A stretch of DNA of 64,000 bases from Malacoraja senta (taxonomy: Eukaryota): the NCBI GenBank assembly GCA_038087875.1, contig CM075993.1:2792001-2856000 (forward strand), written 5' to 3'. This document shows positions 6,684-62,512 of this stretch, piece by piece. The position numbers were made by a program, and so were the translations under genes. Each line of letters opens with the position of its first letter. The stretch's first letter is position 1. The notes beneath the pieces are model-generated. The model saw nothing but the letters and a program-made list of their open reading frames with translations. It was not told where the DNA came from and did no database searches.

Positions 6684-6981
6684 TGTTTAAGAAGGAACTG
6701 CAGATGCTGGAAAATCGAAGGTAGACAAAAATGCTGGAGAAACTCAGCGGGTGCAGCAGCATCTATGGAGCGAAGGAAATAGGCAACGTTTCGGGCCGAA
6801 ACCCTGAAGGAAATAGGCAACGTTTCGGGCCGAAACCCGGAAGGGTTTCGGCCCGAAACGTTGCCTATTTCCTTCGCTCCATAGATGCTGCTGCACCCGC
6901 TGAGTTTCTCCAAGGTAGACAAAATTGCTGCATCTATGGAGCGAAGGAAATAGGCAACGTTTCGGGCCGAAACCCTTCTTC
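6684..6981. mobile_element. Penelope-like fold-back terminal-repeat cluster
   Basis: Inverted arms centred on CCCGGAAGGG (~6836-6845), plus an extra partial arm. Confidence 0.8.
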
Positions 6982-15430: not shown

Positions 15431-15606
15431 ATCCGTCATATATATATATATATAGCAAAGTAAATATGGGCACTACATACAACATAGAACAGTGCGGCAT
15501 TACTCTTACAGGCCTTCGCAAACTGAATGTGGTGATTGTGTTTCACTTAGTTGAGGAGTCTAGAACAAGAAGTGACACTCTCAAAACCAAGGCAAGGTTA
15601 TTTAGA

Positions 15607-15933
15607 AGGTACACAAAAATGCTGGAGAAACTCAGCGGGTGCAGCAGCATCTATGGAGCGAAGGAAATAGGCAACGTTTCGGCCCGAAACCCTTCTTCTA
15701 TGGAGCAAAGGAAATAGGCAACGTTTCGGCCCGAAACCCTTCTTCTATGGAGCAAAGGAAATAGGCAACGTTTCGGCCCGAAACCCTTCTTCTATGGAGC
15801 GAAGGAAATAGGCAACGTTTCGTCCCGAAACGTTGCCTATTTCCTTCGCTCCATAGATGCTGCTGCACCCGCTGAGTTTCTCCAGCATTTTTGTGTACCT
15901 TCGATTTTCCAGCATCTGCAGTTCCTTCTCAAA
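15607..15933. mobile_element. Penelope-like fold-back element with tandem sub-repeats
   Basis: Inverted arms with four GGAAATAGGCAACGTTTCG units; 14-bp TSD CAAGGTTATTTAGA at 15593-15606 and 15934-15947; inserted in an old CR1 fragment. Confidence 0.85.
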
Positions 15934-16647
15934 CAAGGTTATTTAGAGCTGAGATGAGGAGAAATCTGCTCACTCAGAGGGTGGTAAAGTTTTGGAATTT
16001 TCTACCACATGGGGTTCTCCTTGAATACATTTAAAACAGAGATCAAAGGAATCAATGGGCATGGGAGCACAGCTGGAAATTGGCATTGAGTGGAAGATTA
16101 GCTATGACCTTGTCACAAGGTGGACCGTGACCCTGGAGGTCCACTCCTGGAGTACTTTGCCCATTCTTATGCTCATTCTTTTGCCTTCAGTTGCCTTTGT
16201 AACACAAGGATGTGTCACACTACTCTGATGTCTTGTAACGCATGCATATATATATATATATATATGGTACTGTACAATGCGGATCTTCAGAAGACCACCA
16301 CAGATTAATATAATTCCAGACTGCTCTGAAAGCAAAGCACAGCGGGGATGTCCTTGAATGAGAGAATGAATATTAACTTAGCAATGGGAATCTGTATCTT
16401 GTTCCACCAAACACTCTGTATTTTCTGCCTTCCCACCCCCCCCCCCAAATCAAACCTGTCATAGAGCCATAGGGTCACGAAGAAAGGAAGCAGGCCCTTC
16501 GGCCCAACTTGCCCACGCTGACCGACTGTGTTCCGAAAAGCATTATGTTAAAAAAAAATGGATGCAGTCCCCATGTGAAATTGTGCAGTTCAATATTTGA
16601 AAGGAGTAGATTGGGTAAATTTACACAGCTGATCAAGGGGTGGTATA

Positions 16648-22833: not shown

Positions 22834-23556
22834 TGAGATGCAACGAGACACCTGTCATTAATAGTAGTCATGCAGGTGCAGCAGGAAGTGAAGAAAGCGA
22901 ATGGTATGTTAGCATTCATAGCAAAAGGATTTGAGTATAAGAGCAGGGAGATTCTACTGCAGTTGTACAGGGTCTTGGTGAGACCACACCTGGAGTATTG
23001 CGTACAGTTTTGGTCACCTAATCTGAGGAAAGACATTCTTGCCACAGAGGGAGTACAGAGGAGGTTCACCAGATTGATTCCTGGGATGTCAGGACTTTCA
23101 TATGAAGAAAGACTGGATAGACTCGGCTTGTACTCGCTAGAATTTAGGAGATTGAGAGGGGATCTTATAGAAACGTACAAAATTCTTAAGGGGTTGGACA
23201 GGCTAGATGCAGGAAGATTGTTCCCGATGTTGGGGAAGTCCAGAACAAGGGGTCACAGTTTAAGGATAAGGGGGAAATCTTTTAGGACCGAGATGAGGAA
23301 AACATTTTTCACACAGAGAGTGGTGAATCTGTGGAACTCTCTGCCACAGAAGGAAGTTGAGGCCAGTTCATTGGCTATATTTAAGAGGGAGTTAGATGTG
23401 GTCCTTGTGGCTAAAGGGATCAGAGGGTATGGAGAGAAGGCAGGTACAGGATACTGAGTTGGATGATCAGCCATGATCATATTGAATGGTGGTGCAGGCT
23501 CGAAGGGCCGAATGGCCTACTCCTGCACCTATTGTCTATGTTTCTATGTTTCTATG
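22834..23556 (+). mobile_element. CR1 LINE ORF2 3' fragment
   Basis: KKANGMLAFI...[19 protein letters not shown]...GTGY*, 3' UTR and (TATGTTTC)n tail; duplicate at 31433-32172. Confidence 0.92.
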
Positions 23557-31083: not shown

Positions 31084-34000
31084 TGACTCTCTTGTCACCA
31101 GCGTAGGGGAACCGAGGGGTCTGTTTCCACACTGTGTCTCTCAACTCAACCAAACGAAACCAAAATTAAAACCTCGCTATACTAACTTATAGTCTCCTGG
31201 GGTCTTCTTTACCAAGTTACTTTCCTAGTTTATTTCTGCCATGAGAACATTTGACAATGAATGAAAAATATGCAAATAAGTAACGATGATAAAGGAGACA
31301 GGCCAATGTTAGCTGTGGGCTCGGTGAAAACGAGTCATAGACAATGAGACTCAACGTCGGAAGAAGGGTCTCGACACAAAACGTCACCCATTCCTTCTCT
31401 CCAGAGATGCTGCCTGGCCCGCTGAGTTACTCATGAGATGCAACGAGACCTGGGTGTCATGGTACACCAGTCATTAATAGTAGGCATGCAGGTGCAGCAG
31501 GCAGTGAAGAAAGCGAATGGTGTGTTAGCATTCATAGCAAAAGGATTTGAGTATAAGAGCAGGGAGGTTCTACTGCAGTTGTATAGGGTCTTGGTGAGAC
31601 CACACCTGGAGTATTGCGTACAGTTTTGGTCACCTAATCTGAGGAAAGACATTCTTGCCATCGAGGGAGTACAGAGAAGGTTCACCAGACTGATTCCTGG
31701 GATGTCAGGACTTTCATATGAAGAAAGACTGGATAGACTCGGCTTGTACTCGCTAGAATTTAGAAGATTGAGGGGGGATCTTATAGAAACGTACAAAATT
31801 CTTAAGGGGTTGGACAGGCTAGATGCGGGAAGATTGTTCCCGATGTTGGGGAAGTCCAGAACAAGGGGTCACAGTTTAAGGATAAGGGGAAATCTTTTAG
31901 GACCGAGATGAGGAAAACATTTTTCACACAGAGAGTGGTGAATCTCTGGAACTCTCTGCCACAGAAGGTAGTTGAGGCCAGTTCATTGCCTATATTTAAG
32001 AGGGAGTTAGATGTGGTCCTTGTGGCTAAATGGATCAGGGGGTATGGAGAGAAGGCAGGTACAGGATACTGAGTTGGATGATCAGCCATGATCATATTGA
32101 ATGGTGGTGCAGGCTCGAAGGGCCGAATGGCCTACTCCTGCACCTATTGTCTATGTTTCTATGTTTCTATGTTACTCCATCTTTTTTCTGTGTCTATCTT
32201 GGAACCATCCTCTTTAGTGATATGATACCAAGGCCCAGCCACACACACACACACACAGCCCGATCATTCACACTGCTATTATGCCTGCTCTCCTCACATG
32301 TAAGCTCACTCATAATAGATATTTATTGTCTCAGTAATCTCACTTCACGCAAAAGCAAGTGGATTTGTTCAATCTTCCATGAAAATATCCCACGTACATT
32401 CCTCCCACACGGAGGGACTTATTTTTAGATTTATCTGTGGCATCTCCTCGGGAAATTATTGTGCATTTAAAGGTTATTTCTTATTACATGCTATTAGGGG
32501 GGCAGAGTATTTATCTGCATCACCACATAATCAAAAGGGGTGACAAAGGAGGTTTCGCTAATGCATGAAATCCAGTCCCGTCACCCTTGTGTCACCAGCT
32601 TGGCATGGTTAAGTAGAGAAAACTCATCCGGGCACATTATGGAAGTTTAGTTTATGTTTAGTTGAGAGATACAGCGCGGAAACAGGCCCTTCGGCCCACC
32701 GAGTCCGCCCGACCAGCGATCCCCGCACACTAACACTATCTTACATATTCGGGACAATTTGCACATACACCAGGCAGACCTGCACGTCTTTGGAGTGTGG
32801 GAGGATACCGAAGATCTCGGAGAGAGCAAACGCAGGCCAATAGACAATAGACAATAGGTGCAGGAGTAGGCCATTCGGCCCTTCGAGCCAGCACCGCCAT
32901 TCAATGTGATCATGGCTGATCATCCCCAATCAGTACTCCGCTTCCCGCCTTCTCCCCATATCCCCTGACTCCGCAATTTTTAAGAGCCCTATCGAGCTCT
33001 CTCTGAAAGCATCCAGAGAACCTGCCTCCACCGCCCTCTGAGGCAGAGAATTCCACAGACTCACCACTCTCTGTGAGAAAAAGTGTTTCCTCGTCTCCGT
33101 TCTAAATGGCCGACCCTTATTCTTAAACTGTGGCCCCTGCTTCTGGACTCCCCCAACATCGGGAACATGTTTCCTGCCTCTAGCGTGTCCAAGCCCTTAA
33201 CAATCTTATATGTTTACAGGTCACGGGGAGAACGGACAAACTCCAGCCAGCACTCCACAACGGAGACATCAATAGGTGTTTTATTGGAAAACCATGAGTG
33301 TTTGATTAAATCTAGTTTGAATCACACCCCTGTAATTACCAAATGCTACCTTTTTATTAGCCAGCTATAACTCAAAATGGACACTGTACTTTAATGGCTT
33401 GTTGCCTTGTCTTTAACAATAATATGACCATCAGATGATGATATTATTCACAGCGATGGGTTTTCATAGATGCTCCATAATGAATAATGCCGCAGTATTA
33501 ATCAGAAATAATATTTAAGGTACATAAAAATGCTGGAGAAACTCAGCGGGTGCAGCAGCATCTATGGAGCGAAGGAAATAGGCAACGTTTCGGGCCGAAA
33601 CCCTGAAGGAAATAGGCAACGTTTCGGGACGAAACCCGGAAGGGTTTCGGGCCGAAACGTTGCCTATTTCCTTCGCTCCATAGATGCTGCTGCACCCGCT
33701 GAGTTTCTCCAGCAGGTACACAAAAATGCTGGAGAAACTCAGCGGGTGCAGCAGCATCTATGGAGCAAAGGAGGTGCAGGAGTAGGCCATTCGGCCCTTT
33801 CGAGCCTGCACCGCCATTCAATATGATCATGGCTGATCATCCAACTCAGTATCCCGTACCTGCCTTCTCTCCATACCCACTGATCCCTTTAGCCACAAGG
33901 GCCACATCTAACTCCCTCTTAAATATAGCCAATGAACTGGCCTCAACTGCCCTCTGTGGCAGAGAATTCCAGAGATTCACCACTCTCTGTGTGAAAAAAT

Positions 34001-37000
34001 GTTTTTCCTCATCTCGGTCTTAAAGGATTTCCCCCTTATCCTTAAGCTGTGACGCTTGTCCTGGACTTCCCCAACATCGGGAACAATCTTCCTGCATCTA
34101 GCCTGTCCAACCCCATAAGAATTTTGTACGTTTCTATAAGATCCCCTCTCAATCTCCTAAATTCTAGCTTACAACCTGAAATGTTTTTAGTTTCGGAAGG
34201 AACTGCAGATGCCGGTTTAACACCGAAGGTGGACACAAAATGCTGGAGTAACTCAGCGGGTCAGGCATCATCTCTGGAAAAAAATGTATAGGTGACGTTT
34301 CGGGTCGGGTCCCTTCTTCAGACTGATTACAAAGGCTTCTAAGCAGTGAGCGGGTAGGGGTTTAGATTGGATAGAACTTTATCAGCTTGCACGACAATAG
34401 AAAAAATAGAAACATAGAAATATAGGTGCAGGAGTAGGCTATTCGGCCCTTCAAGCCAGCACCGCCATTCAATTATGATCATGGCTGATCACCTAAAATC
34501 AGTAGCCCGTTCCTGCTTTCTCCCCACATCCCTTGATTCCGTTAGCCCTAAGAGCTAAATCGAACTCTCTCTTGAAAACATCCAGTGAATCGGCCTCCAC
34601 TGCCTTCTGTGGCAGAGAATTCCACAGATTCACAACTCTCAGGGTGAAATATTTGATTCTCATCTAAGTCTTAAATGGCCTACCCCTTATTCTTAAACTT
34701 TGACCCCTGGTTCTGGACTCCCCCAACACGGGGAACATTTTTCCTGCATCTATGGTGAGGCAGGTGATCAATGATGGGCCAAATGGCCTAATTCCAACCC
34801 CGTGACTTATTTAATGCTTGTAATATCATAGAAACATAGAAACATATAAAATAGGTGCAGGAGGAGGCCGTTCTGCCCTTCGAGCCAGCACCGCCATTCA
34901 TTGTGATCATGGCTGATCGTCCCCAATCAATAACCCATGCCTGCCTTCTCCCCATATCGCTTGATTCCACTAGCCCCTAGAGCTCTATCTAACTCTCTCT
35001 TAAATCCATCCAGTGATTTGGTCTCTGTGGCAGGGAATTCCACAAATTCACAACTCTCTGGGTGAAAAAGTTTGCTCTCACCTCAGGCTTAAATGGCCTC
35101 CCCTTTATTCTAAGACTGTGCGGCCCCTGGTTCTGGCTCGGAGGGGGTCGGGTAACTATGTGGGTCCACAAACTGCCAGCGCCTGATGACAAAGCACACA
35201 TCACGTACAGGCAGGCTCAGCTCTGCTGCCTTTTACACAGCGACTTTGATATGTCCACTAGGGCAGGTGCTGCCTTTCATGTCGGCCGTTGAGGAAATCA
35301 GGGGAAATTGACTGCTGCTTGATGGAAGATGGTCGAGTTTTATAGGCAGAAATAGTCTTTTGATGTCAAGCCCTTGAGCTGCAACAGCATGGGGCAACCT
35401 TTACAAATCTACTTCATTTAGAGTGCCTTGGACTCATAACAAGGTGCATTTTGTCCCTGTAAGATAAAGGGAATTGTTGCCCGTGATTCCGTTCCCCTTA
35501 ATAGAGATAAATTGCAGCAATATTTATTGAGACACAAAGCAGATAAATAGAACCAATAATTATCATAACATAAATTATTTACCAATAACTTTGGCATGTT
35601 TATGACCTCTTGTTCCTGACTGGTTCAAACCAAAGGCACCTATTTGATTCCTGCACTAAATCACGCGCTTGTCAATACTACCCAACATGTCTGTGCAATT
35701 CTCTGCCTCAGAGGGCGGTGGAGGCAGGTTCTCTGGATGCTTTCAAGAGAGAGCTAGATAGGGCTCTTAAAAATGGCGGAGTCAGGGGATATGGGGAGAA
35801 GGCAGGAACGGGGTACTGATTGGGGATGATCAGCCATGGTCACATTGAATGGCGGTGCTGGCTCGAAGGGCCGAATGGCCTACTCCTGCACCTATTGTCT
35901 ATTGTTTGGGATTTTTGTTTTTGCTCTGGAGGTAAGGCAGTGGTTCCATTTCTCTGGTGGTTTCATTTAAAGACATTGACAAGACTCTGATCAGAATGAA
36001 ATAGGTCATTTCACGAGAATGCGTTACACCGGACAAACAGGCTCGGGTAATAATGAAACGGCGTGGCGGCCTTGAGATGTAATATCAGCCCTCGGCTGCA
36101 CAGCTGAAATGGAGAATAATGGATATCTCTGAGCGCTTACACGATAAAAAAAAAATGTAATCGTGGGGTTCAGATAATATAAACAAGGCCAGCAAAATGT
36201 CGATGCTTTCCACATGTTTCACAAGCTGCATTGCTGGAAAATCCCTCTGTGTTATTATATATTAAGGAGGAAATAAATTTGCCGCAAAATATTAACCAGC
36301 CCTAAACGTGAGAGAACATTGCACTCTGCCTCCAAGTTTGATGTTCAATGTGGACGCAAGGAACCGCAGATGCTGGTTTACAGATAAAAGATACTAGGTG
36401 CTGGAGTACCTGGTGGTGGTAGACTGGTGGTGGCCCAGCGGTAGAGATACTGCCTCACGGTGCCAGAGCTCCGGGTTCGATTCTGACTAGTGTACTGGGG
36501 CATGTTGGCTGGCGTGGGAAAGTTGGGCCTGTTTCCACACTGTATCACTCTACTAGAATGACACTTTCTCTGGCAGCTTGTCCCATGTACGTGTACTGCC
36601 TTCTGTGTGAAAACGTAGCCCCTCGAGTTCCCATTCAATCTGTCCCCTCTCACTTGAAACCTGTGCTGCCAGAAGAGGTAGTTGAAGCCGGGACTATCCC
36701 GACATTGACAAAACAGTTGGGCAGGTACGCGAATAGGACAGATTTGGAGGGATATGGGCAGTTGGGGCAGGCAGCATCTCTGGGGAGGAGGAATGGGTGA
36801 TGTTTCGGGTCAAGACCCTCCTTCAGTCTGAAACGTCACCCATTCCTTCTCTCCAGAGACGTTGCCTGTCCCGCTGAGTTACTCCAGCTTTTTGTGTCTG
36901 TCTTCGGTTTAAACCAGCATCTGCAGTTCCTTCTTACACAGATGAGACTAGTGTAGCGGGGACATGTTGTCCGGTGTGGGGCAAGATGGGCCGAAGGGCC

Positions 37001-37425
37001 TGTTTCCACGCTGTATCACTCTATCACTCACTGTCACAGCAATGCCGTGAAACAATTTGCCTCTTCAAAGGGCAACACACTATTGCTGCCAGCGTATTAA
37101 CCACAAGACAATGACGTGCAGGAACAAGTCTGGCAGTGGCAATAAGATTAAAACTGTTAAACAAGAAAAAAACAGAATGACATTATAATTTATTGGTCTG
37201 CTTTCTCAAATTATACAAAAATGTCAATCTTGTCACAAACGTTTCACAACGATGATGGAGGAAGACATGTTTAATACTGCAGTAACAAGCCTCTGCTCAC
37301 CGGCTGCTCTCTGATCTGCAGCAGGCTCGATCATCCCTTCAACTGAAAACAGTGATTAAAGTGTGTGTAAGTGTGTGTGTGTGTACGTGTAAGTGTGTGT
37401 AGGTGTGTGTGTGGTGTGTGTGTGT

Positions 37426-37462
<37 letters not shown>

Positions 37463-37509
37463 GTGTGTGTGTGTGGTGTGTGTGTGTGGTGTGTGTGTGT
37501 GTGTGTGTG

Positions 37510-37562
<53 letters not shown>

Positions 37563-37578
37563 TGTGTGTGTGTGTGTG

Positions 37579-37627
<49 letters not shown>

Positions 37628-37630
37628 GTG

Positions 37631-37664
<34 letters not shown>

Positions 37665-37665
37665 C

Positions 37666-37701
<36 letters not shown>

Positions 37702-37834
37702 GTGTGTGTGTGTGTGTGTGTGTATGGTGTGTGTGTGTAGGTGTGTGTGTGTGGTGTGTGTGTGTGTGTGTGTGTGTGTGTAGGTGTGTGTGTGTGGTGT
37801 GTGTGTGTGTGTGTGGTGTGTGTGTGTGTGTGTG

Positions 37835-37866
<32 letters not shown>

Positions 37867-37867
37867 C

Positions 37868-37938
<71 letters not shown>

Positions 37939-37976
37939 TGTGTGTGTAGGTGTGTGTGTAATAGAGTGTGTATGTG

Positions 37977-38040
<64 letters not shown>

Positions 38041-38095
38041 TGTGTGTGTAGGTGTGTGTGTAATAGAGTGTGTATGTGGTGTGTGTGTGTGTGCG

Positions 38096-38128
<33 letters not shown>

Positions 38129-38256
38129 TGTGTGTGTAGGTGTGGTGTAATAGAGTGTGTATGTGGTGTGTGTGTGTGTGTGTGTGTGTGCGGTGTGTGT
38201 GTGCGGTGTGTGTGTGTGTGTGCGGTGTGTGTGTGTGTGTGTGTATGATGTGTGTG

Positions 38257-38299
<43 letters not shown>

Positions 38300-38560
38300 T
38301 GTGTGTGTGTGTGTAATAGAGTGTGTATGTGGTGTGTGTGTGTGTGTGTGTGCGGGTGTGTGTGCGGTGTGTGTGTGTGCGGTGGGTGTGTGGTGTGTGT
38401 GAGTGTGTGTGTGTGTGTGTGTGTGGTGTGTGTGTGTGTGTGTGTGTAATAGAGTGTGTATGTGGTGGTGTGTGTGTGTGTGTGTGTGGTGTGCGGTGTG
38501 TGTGTGCGGTGTGTGTGTGTGTGTGCGTGTGTGTGTGTGTGTGTATGAGTGTGTGTGTAG

Positions 38561-38598
<38 letters not shown>

Positions 38599-38609
38599 TG
38601 TGTGTGTGG

Positions 38610-38649
<40 letters not shown>

Positions 38650-38690
38650 TGTGTGTGTGGGTATGCGCATGTGTGTGTGTGTGTGGTGTG
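31084..38690 (+). repeat. Large tandem duplication, copy B
   Basis: Starts at the first base after the gap (TGACTCTCTTGTCACCAGC = 22481). Confidence 0.95.
37361..38690. repeat. Imperfect (GT)n microsatellite, ~1.3 kb
   Basis: Counterpart of 29245-30883. Confidence 0.98.
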
Positions 38691-38825
38691 TGAGCACGTG
38701 TTGTCAGTGTGACTGCGCTAGTGAGAGTGCGCATGAGACAAATATCCACCCTGCAAATTCCACTCGCTTTCCCCAGTCAAGATCAAACACAATTGTGATA
38801 TTAAAACACCTTGAGGCTACAACAG

Positions 38826-45128: not shown

Positions 45129-45905
45129 TCTAGTCATATTGTTTGAACTTTGGTGAGGCTGCCGTTGGAGTGTGTTGTGCAGTTCCAGTTGTCCCATTAA
45201 TGACAGAATGTGAATGCTTGTGAGAAGCTGCAGAATAGGTTTACCAGGTTGCTGCCTGGATGAGAGAGTATTAACTACAGGGAAAGATTGGACAAACTGG
45301 GTTGTTTTCTCTGGAGCGTCGGAACCTGAGGGGAGACCAGATATAAGTATGTAAAATTATGCACGCCATATATTGAGACTGAGAACCGGACAAGAGTCCC
45401 GACTCGAAACGTCGCTGAACTGTGTGTTCCCAGAGATGCTGCCCGACCCGCTGAGTTACTCCAGCACTTTGTGTCTTTTTTTTTGTGTGTAAGCCAGCAC
45501 TTGCAGTTCCTTTTGTCTGCAACTCGTTTACAGCAGCGGGCAAATGATGCAAAGGGAAATGTGCAGAAAAACCTTACACGCACAAAGTGGTAGAAATATC
45601 ACCCTCGGGCAAGTGGAAACTATATCCATCGGTGTCTTTGCAAGGGAATTGGATAGGTACTTGCGAGAAAATAATAACTGGGCTAAAACGAACATCTGGC
45701 AGATGTTAACTGAGTAGATTGCTCCATAAAGAGATGGCATGGACTCTGTAGCAGCTGTTTAGTTTCTCCAGCAATTTTGTCTCCAATTTCAGGTAGTCCC
45801 TGCTTTCTCCTTCATTCCCCTCCCCTTCCCAGCTCTCCCTCAGCCCACTGTCTCCGCCTCTTCCTTTCTCCTTCCCGTCCCCCCCCCCCCCACCCTCGTA
45901 TCAGT

Positions 45906-45933
45906 CTGAAGAAGGGTCTCGACCCGAAACGTC
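45906..45933 (+). ncRNA. Minimal type I hammerhead ribozyme motif (PLE)
   Basis: CTGAAGA A GGGT CTCG ACCC GAAAC GTC. Confidence 0.7.
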
Positions 45934-46593
45934 GCCTATTTCCTTCGCTCCATAGATGCTGCCTCTACCTTCGATTTTTCCAGCATCCGCAGTTCTTTCT
46001 TAAACTATTAATCAAGAGACTGTGTTTGGAAGATTCATCTTTTGATGGCATTGAATGTCTCGTGGAGAGCTCGTGAGCGCGTATCGATTATCTTCTGATC
46101 CCCTGTCTTCAATTGAAGATCCCCTGTCTTCAATTAATTCAAGGAATTAAAGGACTAATTCCTTGAAACGGTGTAAAAATCTGTCACCACAGACTGAAAG
46201 GGCTGAACGGCCTTCATCATATTCACCGTGATAATACAATGATTCAGGATGTTTGCCTTCAGTACTGCTACGCATTGTGTAATGCACCAGTGAATCGCAG
46301 AGAGACCTTGCACATGTCTCCTCTCAACCTTCTTTCTCCCAAGGAGAACTCCAGCTTCTCCTGCCTAACCTTGGAGCTGAGATTGCTCATCTCTGGAACA
46401 ATTCCAATGAATCTTTTCCACGCCCACCTTGCGTGACCTTCACATCCTTTCGAAGGTTCCGCAACCAGACTTGAATGCAGCACTCAATTACAGCTGAACC
46501 AGTGTTAGCGGGTGCCTGAAAACTCACTTAACGACTTTGCAATCTGTTCTCTGAAACTTTCTCTCACTAAACGATCAGTCAACTTCTCCAAAC

Positions 46594-47059
46594 AGTTCCT
46601 TGCGTCTGCAACTCGCTTACAGCAGCGGGCAAATGGTGCAAAGGGAAATGTGCAGAAAATCCTTCCATGCACAAAGTGGTAGAAATATCACCCTCGGGCA
46701 AGTGGAAACTAAATCCATCGGTGTCTTTGCAAGGGAATTGGATAGGTACTTGCGAGAAATTAATAACTAGGCAGAAACGAACATCTGGCAGATGTTAACT
46801 GAGTAGATTGCTCCATAAAGAGATGGCATGGTCTCTGTAGCAGCCATTTAGTTTCTCCAGCATTTTTGTCTCCAGTTTCAGGTAGTCCCTGCTTTCTCCT
46901 TCTTTCCCCTCCCCTTCCCAGCTCTCCCTCAGCCCACTGACTCTGCCTCTTCCTTTCTTTTCCCCTTCCCCGACATCAGTCTGAAGAAGGGTCTCGACCC
47001 GAAACGTCGCCTATTTCCTTCGCTCCATAGATGCTGCCTCACCCGCTGAGTTTCTCCAG
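46594..47059 (+). mobile_element. TSD-flanked copy of 45505-45965 (non-PLE flank plus PLE 3' end)
   Basis: 14-bp direct repeat CAACTTCTCCAAAC at 46580-46593 and 47060-47073; hammerhead motif at 46981-47008. Confidence 0.85.
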
Positions 47060-47099
47060 CAACTTCTCCAAACTGCAGAACATTGATTTTTTAAAAAAC

Positions 47100-47385
47100 T
47101 GTGGTGGCGCAGTGGTAGAGTTGCTGCCTTACAGCGCCAGAGACCTGGGTTCGATCCCGACTACCGCCGCTGTCTGTACGGAGTTTTTTACGTTCTCCCC
47201 ATGACCTGCGTGGGTTTTCTCCGAGATCTTCGGTTTCCTCCCACACTCCAAAGACATGCAGGTTTGTAGGTTAATTGGCTTGGTGTAAGTGCAAATTGTC
47301 CCTAGTGTGAGTAGGGTAGTGTTAGTGTGCAGGGATCGCTGGTCGGTGCGGACTGAAGGGCCTGTTTCTGTGCTCTATGACTCTA
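47100..47385 (+). mobile_element. HE1/V-SINE-like SINE
   Basis: A and B boxes, core and tail. Confidence 0.85.
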
Positions 47386-48147
47386 TGCATCGGCAGGCAT
47401 TTCCTTCTGGTGTCCGGGTCTGCATTATTTAATCATGTTCCCTTGGAGTGATTGTCTAATTACTAGGCATCCAGCATAATCATCAGTGGCCGTCTGGTCT
47501 CTGCTTGCAGCTCCCATGATTAAAAAGTAGTGAAAGGAGAAATGGTTTAAGTTCTAATTTAAAGGCGGCTTGTCGAAATCGCTCCTTCAATATCGCGCAG
47601 CGGGATTCCTTTAGTGGTTGCCAATGGAACATATTTGGTTCTCTGGATACTTTCAAGAGAGAGCTAGATAGGGCTCTTAAAGATAGCAAGAATTTCAGCA
47701 AGCAAGAATTACATTGTCCTATCTTGGACACATGACAATAAACTCTCTTGACTTAACTTGACTTGAAGATAGCGGAGTCAGGGGACATGGGGAGAAGGCA
47801 GGAACGGGGTACTGATTGGGGATGATCAGCCATGATCACATTGAATGGCGGTGCTGGCTCGAAGGGCCAAATGGCCTACTCCTGCACCTATTGTCTATTG
47901 TCTATTGTCTATATTTGATTTGCTAAACGCAAAACCACGAGGCCCCTTCTTCAGAGTGCCAACCTGAAACTCAGCCTCTCCACTCCATCCGCAGATGCTG
48001 CCTGACCCGCTGAGTTACTCCAGCACTTTTGTGTTTGTGCCATCATCAGTGGGCCATGTTTCCAACCACCCTTTTCATATCAGGGAGACACTAAAAGCCG
48101 GAGTAACTCAGCAGGACGGGCAGCGTCTCTGGAGAGAAGGAATGGGT

Positions 48148-52269: not shown

Positions 52270-52935
52270 GTTTAAGAAGGAACGGCAGATGCTGGAAAAA
52301 TCAAAGGGAGACAAAAATGCTGGAGAAACTCAGCGGGTGAGGCAGCATCTACGGAGCGAAGGAATAGGCGACGTTTCGTGTCGAGACCCTTCTTCAGGCT
52401 GATGTGGGGGTGGGGGGGGGGATTAAGAAGAAAGGAAGAGGCGGTGACAGTGGGCTGTGGGAGAGCTGGGAAGGGGAGGGGAAGGAGGGAGAAAGCAGGG
52501 ACTACCTGAAATTGGAGAAGTCAATGTTCATACCGCTGGGGTGTAAACCACCCAAGCGAAATATGAGGTGCTGCTCCTCCAATTTACGGTGGGCCTCACT
52601 CTGTCCATGGAGGAGGCCCAGGACAGAAAGGTCGGATTCGGAATGGGAGGGGGAGTTGAAGGGCTGAGCACCGGGAGATCGGGTTGGTTATTGCGAGCCA
52701 CATGAGTGGCAAGGGTGGGGGAATAAATTTGTGATTTGAGGAAACTGTATTGAATGTATGTATGTATGTATAGCCTCCGAGAATGTCGGATGGAGTTTTG
52801 TATAGATCATGCATTGTATATATTTATTTCTCAAAATAAAGTCTATTTTGAAATAATTTAAAAAACATATTTTTTTTAACTGAGCGGAGGTGTTGGGTGA
52901 AGCGATCGCCAAGCCTGCGCCTTGTGGAAGGTGAA
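52270..52935 (-). mobile_element. Penelope-like 3' end interrupted by a probable Tx1-type tail (~52700-52880, +)
   Basis: Minus-strand GIY-YIG C-terminus; the insert has AATAAAGTCTATTTTG and an A-rich end. Confidence 0.7.
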
Positions 52936-54355: not shown

Positions 54356-54786
54356 CATCTGATCTTCAGGCCCCCTTTGGGTCGTGGCTGCCCATGGGTG
54401 TCTCCAGGGTGCTATTCCCTCTATGGAGGACGCCTGTGCGTGACTTTGTTTAACGTGGGGAGACTGGTGCACAGACAGCCACCCCACGGTCCTTGACAGA
54501 TCTGGGTCAGGATCCAGTGGCATGGAGTCCAAGACGACTGGAGACCCTTTTCTGCCGCAGCCTTCATCCGCCTTCCCAGCCGTTGTGACGCTCCACTAAG
54601 GTCAGCCATCGTCCTCCGCCTGTTCCACCGTTGAGGTCTTGGTTGGATTGCTCTTTGTCAGAGACCAGACCTCCCCCTCGACCGTACCGCCATGGGTGGC
54701 CCTACCAGGAGCATGGCTCCAGACGGCATCGCTCTCAGGATCTCAGGACCACACAAGCTTCTCCACCACGACAAGGTGACGATCCA
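54356..54786 (-). mobile_element. RTE-clade 5'-UTR-derived element, second copy
   Basis: Reverse-complement homologue of 15005-15430. Confidence 0.7.
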
Positions 54787-55032
54787 CGGACAATCCACAT
54801 CTGTGCCACCACAACAAATGGGACTGAGCGACTGCCATTTCGTGCTGGCTTCTTCGGTTCCAGGGTTAGAAAATCCATCAGCAAACCTCATCACTGACAA
54901 CAATTAACCTCCAATCGGCCTCACCATGTTTACAGCTATGAGATTGTGCAAGTGTAAAGTGGCAAGTGAGATTAAATTCAATGCCGTGAATAACAACACA
55001 TTTGTAATGTATACTGATTACACTCAAGATAG

Positions 55033-55422
55033 ACACAGAGTGCTGGAGTAACTCAGCGGGTCAGGCAGCATCTGTGGAGAACATGGATAGGTGACGTTTC
55101 ACACAGTGCTGGAGTAACTCAGCGGGTCAGGCAGCATCTGTGGAGCGAAGGAAATGGGCAACCTTTCGGGCCGAAACCCTGAAGGAAATAGGCAACGTTT
55201 TGGGCCGAAACCCGGAAGGGTTTCGGACCAAAACGTTGCCTATTTCCTTCGCTCTATAGATGCTGCTGGAACATGGATAGGTGACGTTTCACAGAGTGCT
55301 GGAGTAACTCAGCGGGTCAGGCAGCATCTGTGGAGAACATGGATAGGTGACGTTTCCCAGAGTGCTGGAGTAACTCAGCGGGTCAGGCAGCATCTGTGGA
55401 GAACATGGATAGGTGACGTTTC
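55033..55422. repeat. 66-bp PLE-derived tandem array with nested fold-back
   Basis: Same composite as ~49077-49400. Confidence 0.9.
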
Positions 55423-57045: not shown

Positions 57046-57062
57046 AATCAAACTCAAAGGAT

Positions 57063-57172
57063 ATTTAAGAAGGAACTGCAGATGCTGGAAAATCGAAGGT
57101 AGACAAAAGTGCTGGAGAAACTCAGCGGGTGCGGCAGCACCTGCTGAGTTTCTCCATCACTTTTGTCTACCT
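57063..57172. mobile_element. Minimal PLE fold-back (110 bp, hammerhead deleted)
   Basis: 13-bp TSD AAACTCAAAGGAT at 57050-57062 and 57173-57185. Confidence 0.8.
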
Positions 57173-57185
57173 AAACTCAAAGGAT

Positions 57186-60294: not shown

Positions 60295-61262
60295 ATTAGA
60301 TTAGATTTAGATTAAATACTTTATTGATCCCCTCAGGGAAATTCAGATGTGTTAAAGAAGGAACTGCAGATGCTGGAAGATCGAAGAATGCTGGAGAAAC
60401 TCAGCGGGTGCAGCAGCATCTGTGGAGCGAAGGAAATAGGCAACGTTTCGGGCCGAAACCCTGAAGGAAATAGGCAACGTTTCGGGACGAAACCCGGAAG
60501 GAAATAGGCAACGTTTCGGGCCGAAACCCTGAAGGAAATATGGAACGTATCGGGCCGAAACCCTGAAGGAAATAGGCAACGTTTCGGGCCGAAACCCTGA
60601 TGGAAATAGGCAACGTTTCGGGACGAAACCCGGAAGGAAATAGGCAACGTTTCGGGACGAAACCCGGAAGGGTTTCGGCCCGAAACGTTGCCTATTTCCT
60701 TCGCTCCATAGATGCTGCTGCACCCGCTGAGTTTCTCCAGCATTTTTGTCCACCTTCGATTTTCCAGCATCCGCAGTTCCTTCTTAAACAACCTATATAT
60801 CAGTCCCATTTCAGAATTCCCTTCTCGGAGCGAAACGTTGCCTATTTCCTTCAGGGTTTCGGCCCGAAACGTTGCCTATTTCCTTCGCTCCATAGATGCT
60901 GCTGCACCCGCTGAGTTTCTCCAGCATTTTTGTGTACCTAGGGAAATTCAGATGTCCAGAAGCCAACAGCCAACAAACCCACACATTCAGAACGAAAGCA
61001 GACAAAATATACATAAATACAATATGGACAGCACCTGAAAGCAATAAATACTTAAAAAGACCCAACAATTAACAATTAAAAATGCAAAGCATCCCCATAC
61101 AGCCCAGCGGTCCGTATTATAAAATCTAATGGCTGCAGGGGTGAAGGTTCTCCCGAACCGATCCGTTCTACAGGGCAGGGGAGAGGAGCCGGTTGTTGTT
61201 CCGTGTGCTCTTTTGCCCCATCCAGAGTTTCATGGAGGGGGTGCCCGGAGTTGTCGAGGATG
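60295..61262 (-). mobile_element. Rex1/Babar-like LINE 3' fragment hosting a PLE insertion
   Basis: Minus-strand ILDNSGHPLHETL...TPAAIRFYN; (TAGAT)n tail and TTTATTGATCCCC at the left end. Confidence 0.7.
60351..60939. mobile_element. Penelope-like fold-back with 34-bp array and captured spacer
   Basis: 16-bp TSD AGGGAAATTCAGATGT at 60335-60350 and 60940-60955. Confidence 0.85.
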
Positions 61263-62512
61263 ACCGTACAAACTCCGTACAGACAGCACTGTACATAGTC
61301 AGGATCGAACCGGGGTCTCTGGCACTGAAAGTGCCGCTGAAGATAGTCTGTGTGAAGGAATGTACTCATCCTGGGATCTGCATGGTGGAAAGTGAAACTG
61401 AGAGCTTGGGGACAGTGACTGATTTAATTCAAGCGAAGTTCCTAGTTTTTTCTATATCACCAACGCAGTCGCAGGGGGGAACGTACAAACTCCGTGCAGC
61501 CAGCACCAGAGGTCAGGATCGAACCCGGGTCTCTGGCACCACGAGGCACCGACTCTACCGGTGTGCCACCGTTTGTACGGAGTTCGTACGTTCTCCCTGT
61601 GACCGTGTGGGTTTTCTCCGAGTGCTGTAGCAGTGGTTAAGTTGATCACAACTGTTCAACCGTGAATCTGACTCGAGTTGGAAGGAACTGCAGATGCTGG
61701 TTTAAACCGTAGACACAAAGTGCTGGAGTAACTCAACGGGACAGGCAGCATCTCTGGAGAGAAGGAACGGTTGACGTTTCGGGTCGAGGCCCTTCTTCAG
61801 ATGTCTATCTACTTTCCTTTGGAGTGGTGGAACTGTGCAATGTACTGCCGAAATGACACCAAGTGCTGGAGTAACTCAGCGGGTCAGGCGTCATCTTTGG
61901 CGAACAACCATAGGCAAACGTGGTCGGGACCCGTAGGCCTCTGGTCGGGACCCTTCCTCAGTCTGAAGAAGGGTTCCGACCTGAAAGGTCACCGCGGCAG
62001 AGGCAGACACAAAAAGCTGGAGTAACTCATCGGAAAGCTGGAGTAACTCAGCAGGAATCTCACTCCCTCTGTCAAGCAAGAGTCCCAGACTTCCCAGCCA
62101 AGTTTACCTGGATATCCCGCAATTACGTTCAACTCCATAAAAGCTTCCAGCTGTCTCTTGAATTACGTGTGTTGTTCACTTATGATGGCCTCTCCCTGGT
62201 AACAAACAGTACCTCGTTCATCTTCACATTAGAAGCTTCTATTTGACCTGCCAGCTTGAGCAATACTTTTCATCTGAATAACATCAATGTGACTTGATTT
62301 GAATCAATGGAATACATCCATTTCAAATCACTTCCTAAGTGCTCATGTATAAAAATAAATGTTTTGAACATAATCATAGAAAAATAATATGAATGGTTGA
62401 ATTTGCATTTGTCCATTTATATGGCTTCTATTTCAATACTTTAATGAAGCCCTTTGCAACGGGTTTGATATATTTTCCGACATCGCTTTCTTCTCTTAGT
62501 TTAGTTTAGTTA

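What the first reader, a model, noticed from the sequence alone, without database searches (positions are those of the whole stretch)
45505..47073. Apparent Penelope-mediated 5' transduction: a local 466-bp copy with its own TSD
Seen: 46594-47059 duplicates 45505-45965, i.e. about 270 bp of non-PLE upstream sequence plus a PLE 3' end with hammerhead. It is flanked by a 14-bp direct repeat CAACTTCTCCAAAC of PLE-type length and sits about 1.1 kb downstream in the same orientation, not in tandem. The copy retains ACCCGCTGAGTTTCTCCAGC, which is deleted in the donor. Inference: a read-in transcript ending in the PLE repeat was retrotransposed next to its source, moving host DNA.
Basis: partly seen in the sequence, partly recalled or inferred. 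Interest (0 to 1): 0.7.

Follow-up and report, generated by a model that had tools for sequence, protein, structure and literature searches.

The report
Old local copy with Penelope-type scar
A 466-base piece of decayed jumping-gene DNA was copied once, long ago, to a spot 0.6 kb past its source, leaving the same 14-base scar that Penelope-like retroelements leave here, which hints but does not prove that these elements can copy neighbouring DNA on the spot.

Summary
The duplication is real. Copy B (46594-47059) repeats donor A (45505-45965; 25 mismatches in 448 columns) in the same orientation, inside an exact 14-bp direct repeat. Six other Penelope-like (PLE) insertions in the window have 13-16-bp repeats; 0 of 11 SINEs have one of 12 bp or more. 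The middle is low-copy in 4 of 4 related genomes, so it is no element consensus. It is about 235 bp of decayed LINE 3' end, not unique host DNA, and B begins inside another PLE tail. All 4 relatives carry B's 5' junction, so no empty site was seen. B stops about 13 nt short of the family's nearer usual 3' end. A free RNP would land this close about twice in a million times. Best reading (0.55): a PLE enzyme cut the site and copied a template held in cis. Main rival (0.3): host template-switch repair. PLE transport of flanking DNA within a TSD is published (rotifer), and this scan noted it in another genome (e1-8033579). I found no local case. One old event with junk cargo.

The parts
45147..45370 (+). 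Decayed LINE ORF2 3' relic upstream of the donor (CR1/L2-type label recalled)
   Evidence: tblastn E 5e-11 with the window ORF at 22837; nhmmer profile positions 65-278, E 1e-23
45392..45521 (+). Upstream PLE end ('tail 1', a different subfamily, degenerate hammerhead) that interrupts the LINE relic; the copied segment starts about 17 nt before its end
   Evidence: blastn to many window copies; tail listing; no intact hammerhead core found
45505..45965 (+). Donor segment A; continuous with its flanks at both ends
   Evidence: no TSD found for A's own 3' end or for tail 1 with up to 2 mismatches
45521..45755 (+). Cargo in the donor: continuation of the LINE relic (ORF end and 3' UTR)
   Evidence: local alignment score 223 against the window's LINE 3' fragments, 0 of 300 shuffles reach it; tblastn E 0.013; nhmmer only E 0.2, positions 401-501, collinear with the upstream relic
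45755..46005 (+). PLE 3' end in the donor: tail stub, last codons and stop of the GIY-YIG ORF, pyrimidine tract, hammerhead core (45906-45933), tail with a 29-nt deletion after 45965
   Evidence: alignment with ORF-bearing copies; that ORF gives GIY-YIG E 8e-4, below the curated cut-off, and GIY-YIG clusters in the atlas
46317..46590 (-). Minus-strand LINE relic that reaches into the left target repeat
   Evidence: nhmmer E 2e-9 for 46317-46487; local alignment to 46590, 0 of 200 shuffles reach it, only narrowly
46580..46593 (+). Left copy of the 14-bp target-site duplication; its last base is shared with the donor
   Evidence: junction bridged by one contig in each of X1, X6, X9, X10
46594..47059 (+). 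Copy B, 466 nt: end of tail 1, LINE relic, tail stub, PLE 3' end with hammerhead core (46981-47008), ending inside the tail
47060..47073 (+). Right copy of the 14-bp duplication; its first 2 bases also fit the PLE tail
   Evidence: not resolved in relatives because of repeat pile-up
47103..47390 (+). Unrelated high-copy SINE next to the right repeat

Best explanation
B is one old insertion made by the enzyme of this genome's GIY-YIG Penelope-like family, using a template held at the locus and not a free RNA. The endonuclease made its usual ~14-nt staggered cut 0.6 kb downstream of A (inferred from the repeat length). The nicked strand primed on a 2-nt CA match in the PLE tail, at a non-usual position. 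Synthesis ran back through A's PLE end and the LINE relic and stopped in the upstream tail with a 1-nt overlap. Fill-in made the 14-bp repeat. A lost 29 nt later (inferred). The likelier template is a nascent read-through RNA across A (about 0.3). The other option is a PLE cDNA begun on another RNA that switched to neighbouring A by homology, like L1 templated insertions (about 0.25). Shown: anatomy, donor and copy, repeat length, low copy number, presence in relatives. Inferred: the enzyme, the template and the order of steps.
For: B's repeat is 14 bp. The six other PLE insertions with a clear repeat, picked by eye from the 28 rows with paired rows counted once, have 14, 14, 14, 13, 13 and 16. 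SINE control: 0 of 11 heads with 12 bp or more. B ends in a PLE tail in sense orientation; tails cover only 8.3% of the window. Overlaps of 1-2 nt between tail and repeat also occur at other insertions (read). The middle has depth of 1-2 times the single-copy flank, against 1e5-1e7 in PLE and SINE parts, in 4 of 4 runs, so A is the only plausible source. PLE enzymes cut both strands and start reverse transcription inside the RNA without homology to the cut DNA (PMC11167929). They move unrelated DNA within a TSD (PMC3846280).
Against: B ends at offset 0 after the tail core. All 10 termini of the six other insertions end at +11 to +14 or +38 to +50, and 56 of 76 tail cores end in those two bins. 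There is no inverted arm, which 4 of the 6 have. No empty site in 4 of 4 relatives, and the 3' junction is unresolved there. No intron, poly(A) or RNA data show an RNA step. Both ends have short overlaps, as in repair events. It is a single case; no genome was held for a search for others. The six-case TSD set is biased to repeats of 10 bp or more by the search itself.
Confidence: 0.55

Rival explanations
1. Host DNA repair or replication template switching without PLE enzymes: a fork or break end at the target jumped back to A, copied 466 nt and returned 14 nt early (local two-jump or SDSA type).
For: Explains the proximity and same orientation directly. It explains the non-usual 3' end and the 1-2-nt overlaps. 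Local copy-and-paste of genomic templates is described in cancer genomes (PMC7025897, passages). The target weakly resembles the PLE tail: 23 of 2000 shuffles but 40 of 548 local 22-mers score as high, so this is inconclusive.
Against: It must hit by chance both the modal PLE repeat length and a 3' end in a sense PLE tail (tails cover 8.3% of the window on both strands).
Confidence: 0.3
2. Classic 5' transduction as first proposed, by a free RNP: a read-in transcript ending in the PLE tail was exported, packaged and landed near its source by chance.
For: Same anatomy: upstream sequence plus PLE end within a PLE-length repeat.
Against: Landing within about 1.2 kb in a genome of a gigabase or more has a chance near 2e-6 (my arithmetic; genome size not measured, runs hold 1.7-2.6 Gb of contigs). 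The 3' end is non-usual.
Confidence: 0.03
3. Tandem duplication of a larger unit followed by deletions, with no insertion event.
For: Same orientation; large tandem duplications exist in the window.
Against: The 14-mer sits exactly on both sides of B and not beside A. The spacer 46000-46600 is single-copy in the window. Two exact deletions would be needed.
Confidence: 0.04
4. Retrozyme-like circle: a transcript cut at the hammerheads of tail 1 and A was circularised and copied round the circle, giving a permuted monomer that starts and ends in a tail.
For: Both ends of B lie in PLE tails; tandem hammerheads can act as dimers (PMC4209133, part 1).
Against: The model predicts tail-1 sequence after B's hammerhead. 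B instead is identical to A for 66 nt across and beyond the hammerhead and has the A-subfamily tail. Tail 1 has no intact core.
Confidence: 0.01

Closest known systems
Penelope-mediated mobilisation of host DNA in Adineta vaga (PMC3846280; parts 1-4 of 5 read, whole main text)
   Same: Non-element DNA carried with PLE terminal repeats inside a TSD; non-coding cases are mentioned there too; host DNA capture beside a 3' pLTR in Pen1.
   Different: There the cargo lies between whole pLTRs (two direct, one inverted), the TSD is 8 bp, the copy went to a new chromosomal location and an empty allele was shown. Here only ~17 nt of an upstream tail is inside the repeat, there is no inverted arm, the copy sits 0.6 kb from its source and no empty allele was found.
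Endonuclease-positive PLE insertions with two reverse-transcription start sites and a 30-40-nt tail (PMC11167929, parts 1-2 of 4 read; PMC8557442, passages)
   Same: The window's PLE copies show two end clusters about 35 nt apart and 13-16-bp repeats; B has the same repeat length and a hammerhead-bearing 3' end.
   Different: B ends at neither cluster and is mostly non-PLE sequence.
L1 templated insertions (bioRxiv 10.1101/2024.08.27.596794, passages)
   Same: A retroelement integration that also duplicates a nearby genomic segment, proposed to arise when the cDNA pairs with nearby homologous DNA.
   Different: Reported for L1 in tumours, templates mostly under 250 bp and within 15 bp of the site. 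Here it is a germline event, a PLE end, 466 bp, 0.6-1.1 kb away.
Local n-jump copy-and-paste rearrangements (PMC7025897, passages)
   Same: Extra copy of a local template inserted in one event.
   Different: No link to retroelement ends or to a fixed repeat length is described in the passages seen.

Membership tests
EN+ PLE-made insertion | 3' part derives from a GIY-YIG PLE end, in sense orientation | tested here: met
   aligns with the ORF end and 3' region of copies at 52336, 13743, 21763; the ORF at 12990 hits GIY-YIG below the Pfam cut-off and GIY-YIG atlas clusters at 0.96-0.97
EN+ PLE-made insertion | TSD of the family's length | tested here: met
   14 bp against 14, 14, 14, 13, 13, 16; 0 of 11 SINEs with 12 bp or more
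EN+ PLE-made insertion | 3' terminus at one of the two usual start sites | tested here: not met
   offset 0 against +11 to +14 or +38 to +50 at 10 of 10 termini; 56 of 76 cores end in those bins
EN+ PLE-made insertion | Minimal hammerhead in the terminal repeat | tested here: met
   core motif at 46981-47008 and 45906-45933 (motif recalled); no Rfam hammerhead hit; cleavage not tested
EN+ PLE-made insertion | Empty orthologous site with one copy of the repeat | tested here: inconclusive
   4 of 4 relatives laid have the filled 5' junction; only 4 of 24 listed runs could be laid; right-flank continuity of the target LINE relic was not significant
EN+ PLE-made insertion | RNA intermediate | not testable with these tools
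   no intron or other RNA mark in the segment; PLE copies here have no poly(A)
pLTR-framed cargo (A. vaga type) | Cargo between two whole pLTRs inside the TSD | tested here: not met
   only ~17 nt of the upstream tail lies inside the repeat
Classic 5' transduction | Upstream flank of a source element copied with the element's 3' end | tested here: met
   middle low-copy in 4 of 4 relatives
Classic 5' transduction | Dispersed landing of a free RNP product | tested here: not met
   target 614 nt from the donor's end; about two copies by depth
Classic 5' transduction | Read-in transcript from an upstream promoter | not tested
Non-LTR retrozyme circle | Copy is a hammerhead-to-hammerhead monomer, possibly permuted | tested here: not met
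   B is collinear with A beyond the hammerhead

The most novel reading that the evidence does not exclude
PLE enzymes can act co-transcriptionally in cis. They grab any nascent RNA that runs through an old PLE tail, cut the chromosome just downstream and paste a copy of the upstream sequence there. With about one tail per kb (76 cores in 64 kb), every transcribed region of such a genome could yield short local duplications with 13-16-bp scars, and the same step could build the family's partial tandems.
Probability: 0.2. Interest if true: 0.65.

Novelty: new variant of a known kind. Interest (0 to 1): 0.3.

Why it matters
The locus itself has no evident function: both copies are transposon relics. 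It matters as a clue to how PLEs choose a template. A copy 0.6 kb from its source cannot come from a freely diffusing RNP, so if a PLE enzyme made it, the enzyme used a tethered RNA or switched onto neighbouring DNA. How PLEs build tandem and inverted insertions is still called undefined in PMC8557442 (passages). The case gives a concrete genome-wide test. If it is host repair, it is an ordinary templated insertion that happens to end in an abundant repeat.

Tried and rejected
No whole genome is held, so the proposed genome-wide BLAST was replaced by contig depth in relatives. Rfam found no hammerhead; its hits were palindromes matching miRNA models below threshold. A profile built from 19 window LINE fragments gave only E 0.2 for the middle and nothing in the shuffle run; the pairwise test with shuffles was clearer. 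Pfam and the atlas did not name the LINE ORF, so 'CR1/L2-type' is recalled. No TSD was found for A's own PLE end or for tail 1. Continuity of the target LINE relic across the site: right flank 8 of 200 shuffles reached the score and alignments were poor; not used. Target-to-tail resemblance: inconclusive. A foreign 3' part in B: no sign, as the last 66 nt are identical to A, but the C-rich tract differs; an offset slip was corrected. The inverted 421-bp pair 15005/54783 was checked as a second case; it has no PLE tail end or evident repeat at its borders by eye. The joints table was swamped by repeat-derived rows (15 shown, 2289 not shown); no skip over B was among those shown, and the tool did not count all joints. 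Paper searches for a local PLE-made copy listed none; the library lacks most subscription journals, and no supplements were read. Earlier-finding look-ups by sequence, by place and by three word sets returned nothing.

Full report
Observation. The duplication is as described. A (45504-45803) and B (46593-46892) match at 94% without gaps at an offset of 1089. Over the whole segment there are 423 matches, 25 mismatches and 15 gap columns. The 14-mer lies at 46580-46593 and 47060-47073 and nowhere else in the window; chance is about 2e-7, or 1e-5 without the three bases that overlap the donor. The insert is 466 nt and starts 614 nt past the end of the donor segment. B keeps 21 nt of tail that A lacks; A has a 29-nt deletion relative to the copy at 6750. 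A is the donor: its sequence runs on into its flanks at both ends, while B is bounded by the repeat.

What the segment is made of. The PLE label holds. The 3' part aligns with the ORF end and 3' region of other window copies. The longest such ORF hits GIY-YIG, below Pfam's cut-off, and GIY-YIG clusters in the atlas. A minimal hammerhead core is intact in both copies (motif recalled; Rfam has no hit). The 'non-PLE' part is shorter than stated and is not unique DNA. The first ~17 nt are the end of an upstream PLE tail of another subfamily. Positions 45521-45755 align to the window's LINE 3' fragments with a score that 0 of 300 shuffles reach, for both copies. The profile search was weak (E 0.2) but collinear with the clear relic at 45148-45360. 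So the donor is an old LINE relic interrupted by one PLE end and followed by another. The name CR1/L2 is recalled; Pfam and the atlas gave none. The target lies at the edge of a second, minus-strand LINE relic.

Is the repeat of PLE type? I searched 76 tail cores for flanking repeats. From the 28 rows I took six independent insertions with a clear repeat, counting paired arms once and dropping rows that were SINE, LINE or A/B matches or 10-12-bp matches away from element borders. Their lengths are 14, 14, 14, 13, 13 and 16. None of 11 SINE heads had a match of 12 bp or more (a rough control). B's 14 bp is therefore the family's mode. But all 10 termini of those six insertions lie at +11 to +14 or +38 to +50 after the core, two clusters that fit the two reverse-transcription starts and the 30-40-nt tail of PMC11167929 (parts 1-2 read). 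B ends at 0. Of 76 cores, 56 end in the two usual bins; most of the rest are array or inversion junctions, and about four, B among them, are odd flank junctions. Four of the six have an inverted arm; B has none.

Relatives. No genome is held. The run search listed 24 runs; I laid four, from four different organisms, on B and its flanks. In 4 of 4, one contig crosses B's 5' junction with well over 31 letters on each side (46087-46772, 46085-46648, 46278-46896, 46278-46896). The site is filled in all; no empty allele was seen. The 3' junction is buried under repeat contigs. Depth over the middle is one to two times the single-copy flank, against 1e5-1e7 over the PLE end and SINE, so the middle is not a high-copy consensus. 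X1 has a second contig that starts exactly at 46593 with 42 loose letters, as an orthologue of A should, and X6 has two contigs over the middle. These contigs differ from the window by 5.5-7.6%, and A differs from B by 5.6% (95% interval 3.2-9.1%). At 9 of 15 A/B differences in 46594-46860 the relatives' contigs carry A's letter (only 40 of 283 rows were shown, so the other six are unknown). Most of the A/B divergence thus arose after these lineages split, and the copy was made shortly before (inference). An empty site would need more distant species. Contigs may mix A and B inside the repeat; the junction itself is safe.

Mechanism. A hammerhead-to-hammerhead circle is excluded, since B is identical to A for 66 nt across and past the hammerhead instead of switching to tail 1. 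Two readings remain. In the first (0.55), the PLE enzyme made its 14-nt staggered cut, primed on a 2-nt match in a tail and copied a template held at the locus: a nascent read-through RNA (about 0.3) or neighbouring DNA reached by a cDNA switch (about 0.25), as proposed for L1 templated insertions (10.1101/2024.08.27.596794, passages). It explains the repeat length and the sense-tail end, which tails' 8.3% share of the window makes unlikely by chance. It does not explain the odd end. In the second (0.3), host template switching made a local two-jump (PMC7025897, passages). It explains proximity and the odd end but needs two coincidences. A weak likeness of the target to the PLE tail could have guided either and is not significant against local sequence (40 of 548). 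No step of either mechanism is shown directly.

Comparison with what is known. PLE transport of unrelated DNA within a TSD, with an empty allele, is published for Adineta vaga, including non-coding cases (PMC3846280, main text read). This scan noted a PLE insertion with copied host DNA in a 14-bp repeat in another genome (e1-8033579; an unchecked note). B works like such an event but fails two membership features: the usual 3' end and framing by whole pLTRs. I found no report of a PLE-made copy next to its source; that library misses most subscription journals and I read no supplements.

Verdict. A real, old, single local insertion with a PLE-length repeat and relic cargo. The transduction idea is partly supported, and only in a cis form. 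It is a variant of a known kind; interest 0.3. The bolder reading, co-transcriptional local copying by PLEs as a general process, has probability 0.2 and can be tested with one genome-wide catalogue.

Noticed in passing
window:42380-42720 (-) and 61680-61930 (-): Two sites 19 kb apart share the same ~45-nt spacer between two same-sense PLE ends with different outer flanks; this may be a tail-spacer-tail unit that moved as one.
   Followed up: partly
window:15005-15422 and 54363-54783: A 421-bp segment occurs twice, inverted, 94% alike, otherwise low-copy in the window; probably a dispersed repeat family; no PLE end or evident flanking repeat.
   Followed up: partly
window:22481-30598 and 31084-38692: A tandem block of about 8.6 kb at 92-99% identity beside a run of N; it may be a recent duplication or two haplotypes assembled in series.
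   Followed up: no
window:2870-3530, 15590-15940, 57050-57180, 60350-60940: Four back-to-back PLE insertions, each in one 13-16-bp repeat with one short and one long end; two hold tandem arrays of ~34-bp hammerhead-region units.
   Followed up: partly
window:46753 and its counterpart in A: Both copies have C at this CpG here, while contigs of all four relatives show T; parallel CpG decay or conversion between the copies.
   Followed up: no
window:47045-47060: B's 3' end coincides with the base of a small predicted hairpin in the tail.
   Followed up: no
window:46018-46241: The spacer holds a 19-bp tandem repeat and a 30-bp imperfect palindrome, and depth rises there in all four relatives, suggesting a middle-copy repeat.
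   Followed up: no
window:49000-49830 and 55030-55410: Arrays of ~66-bp PLE tail units with internal inversions and a 256-bp tandem duplication.
   Followed up: no
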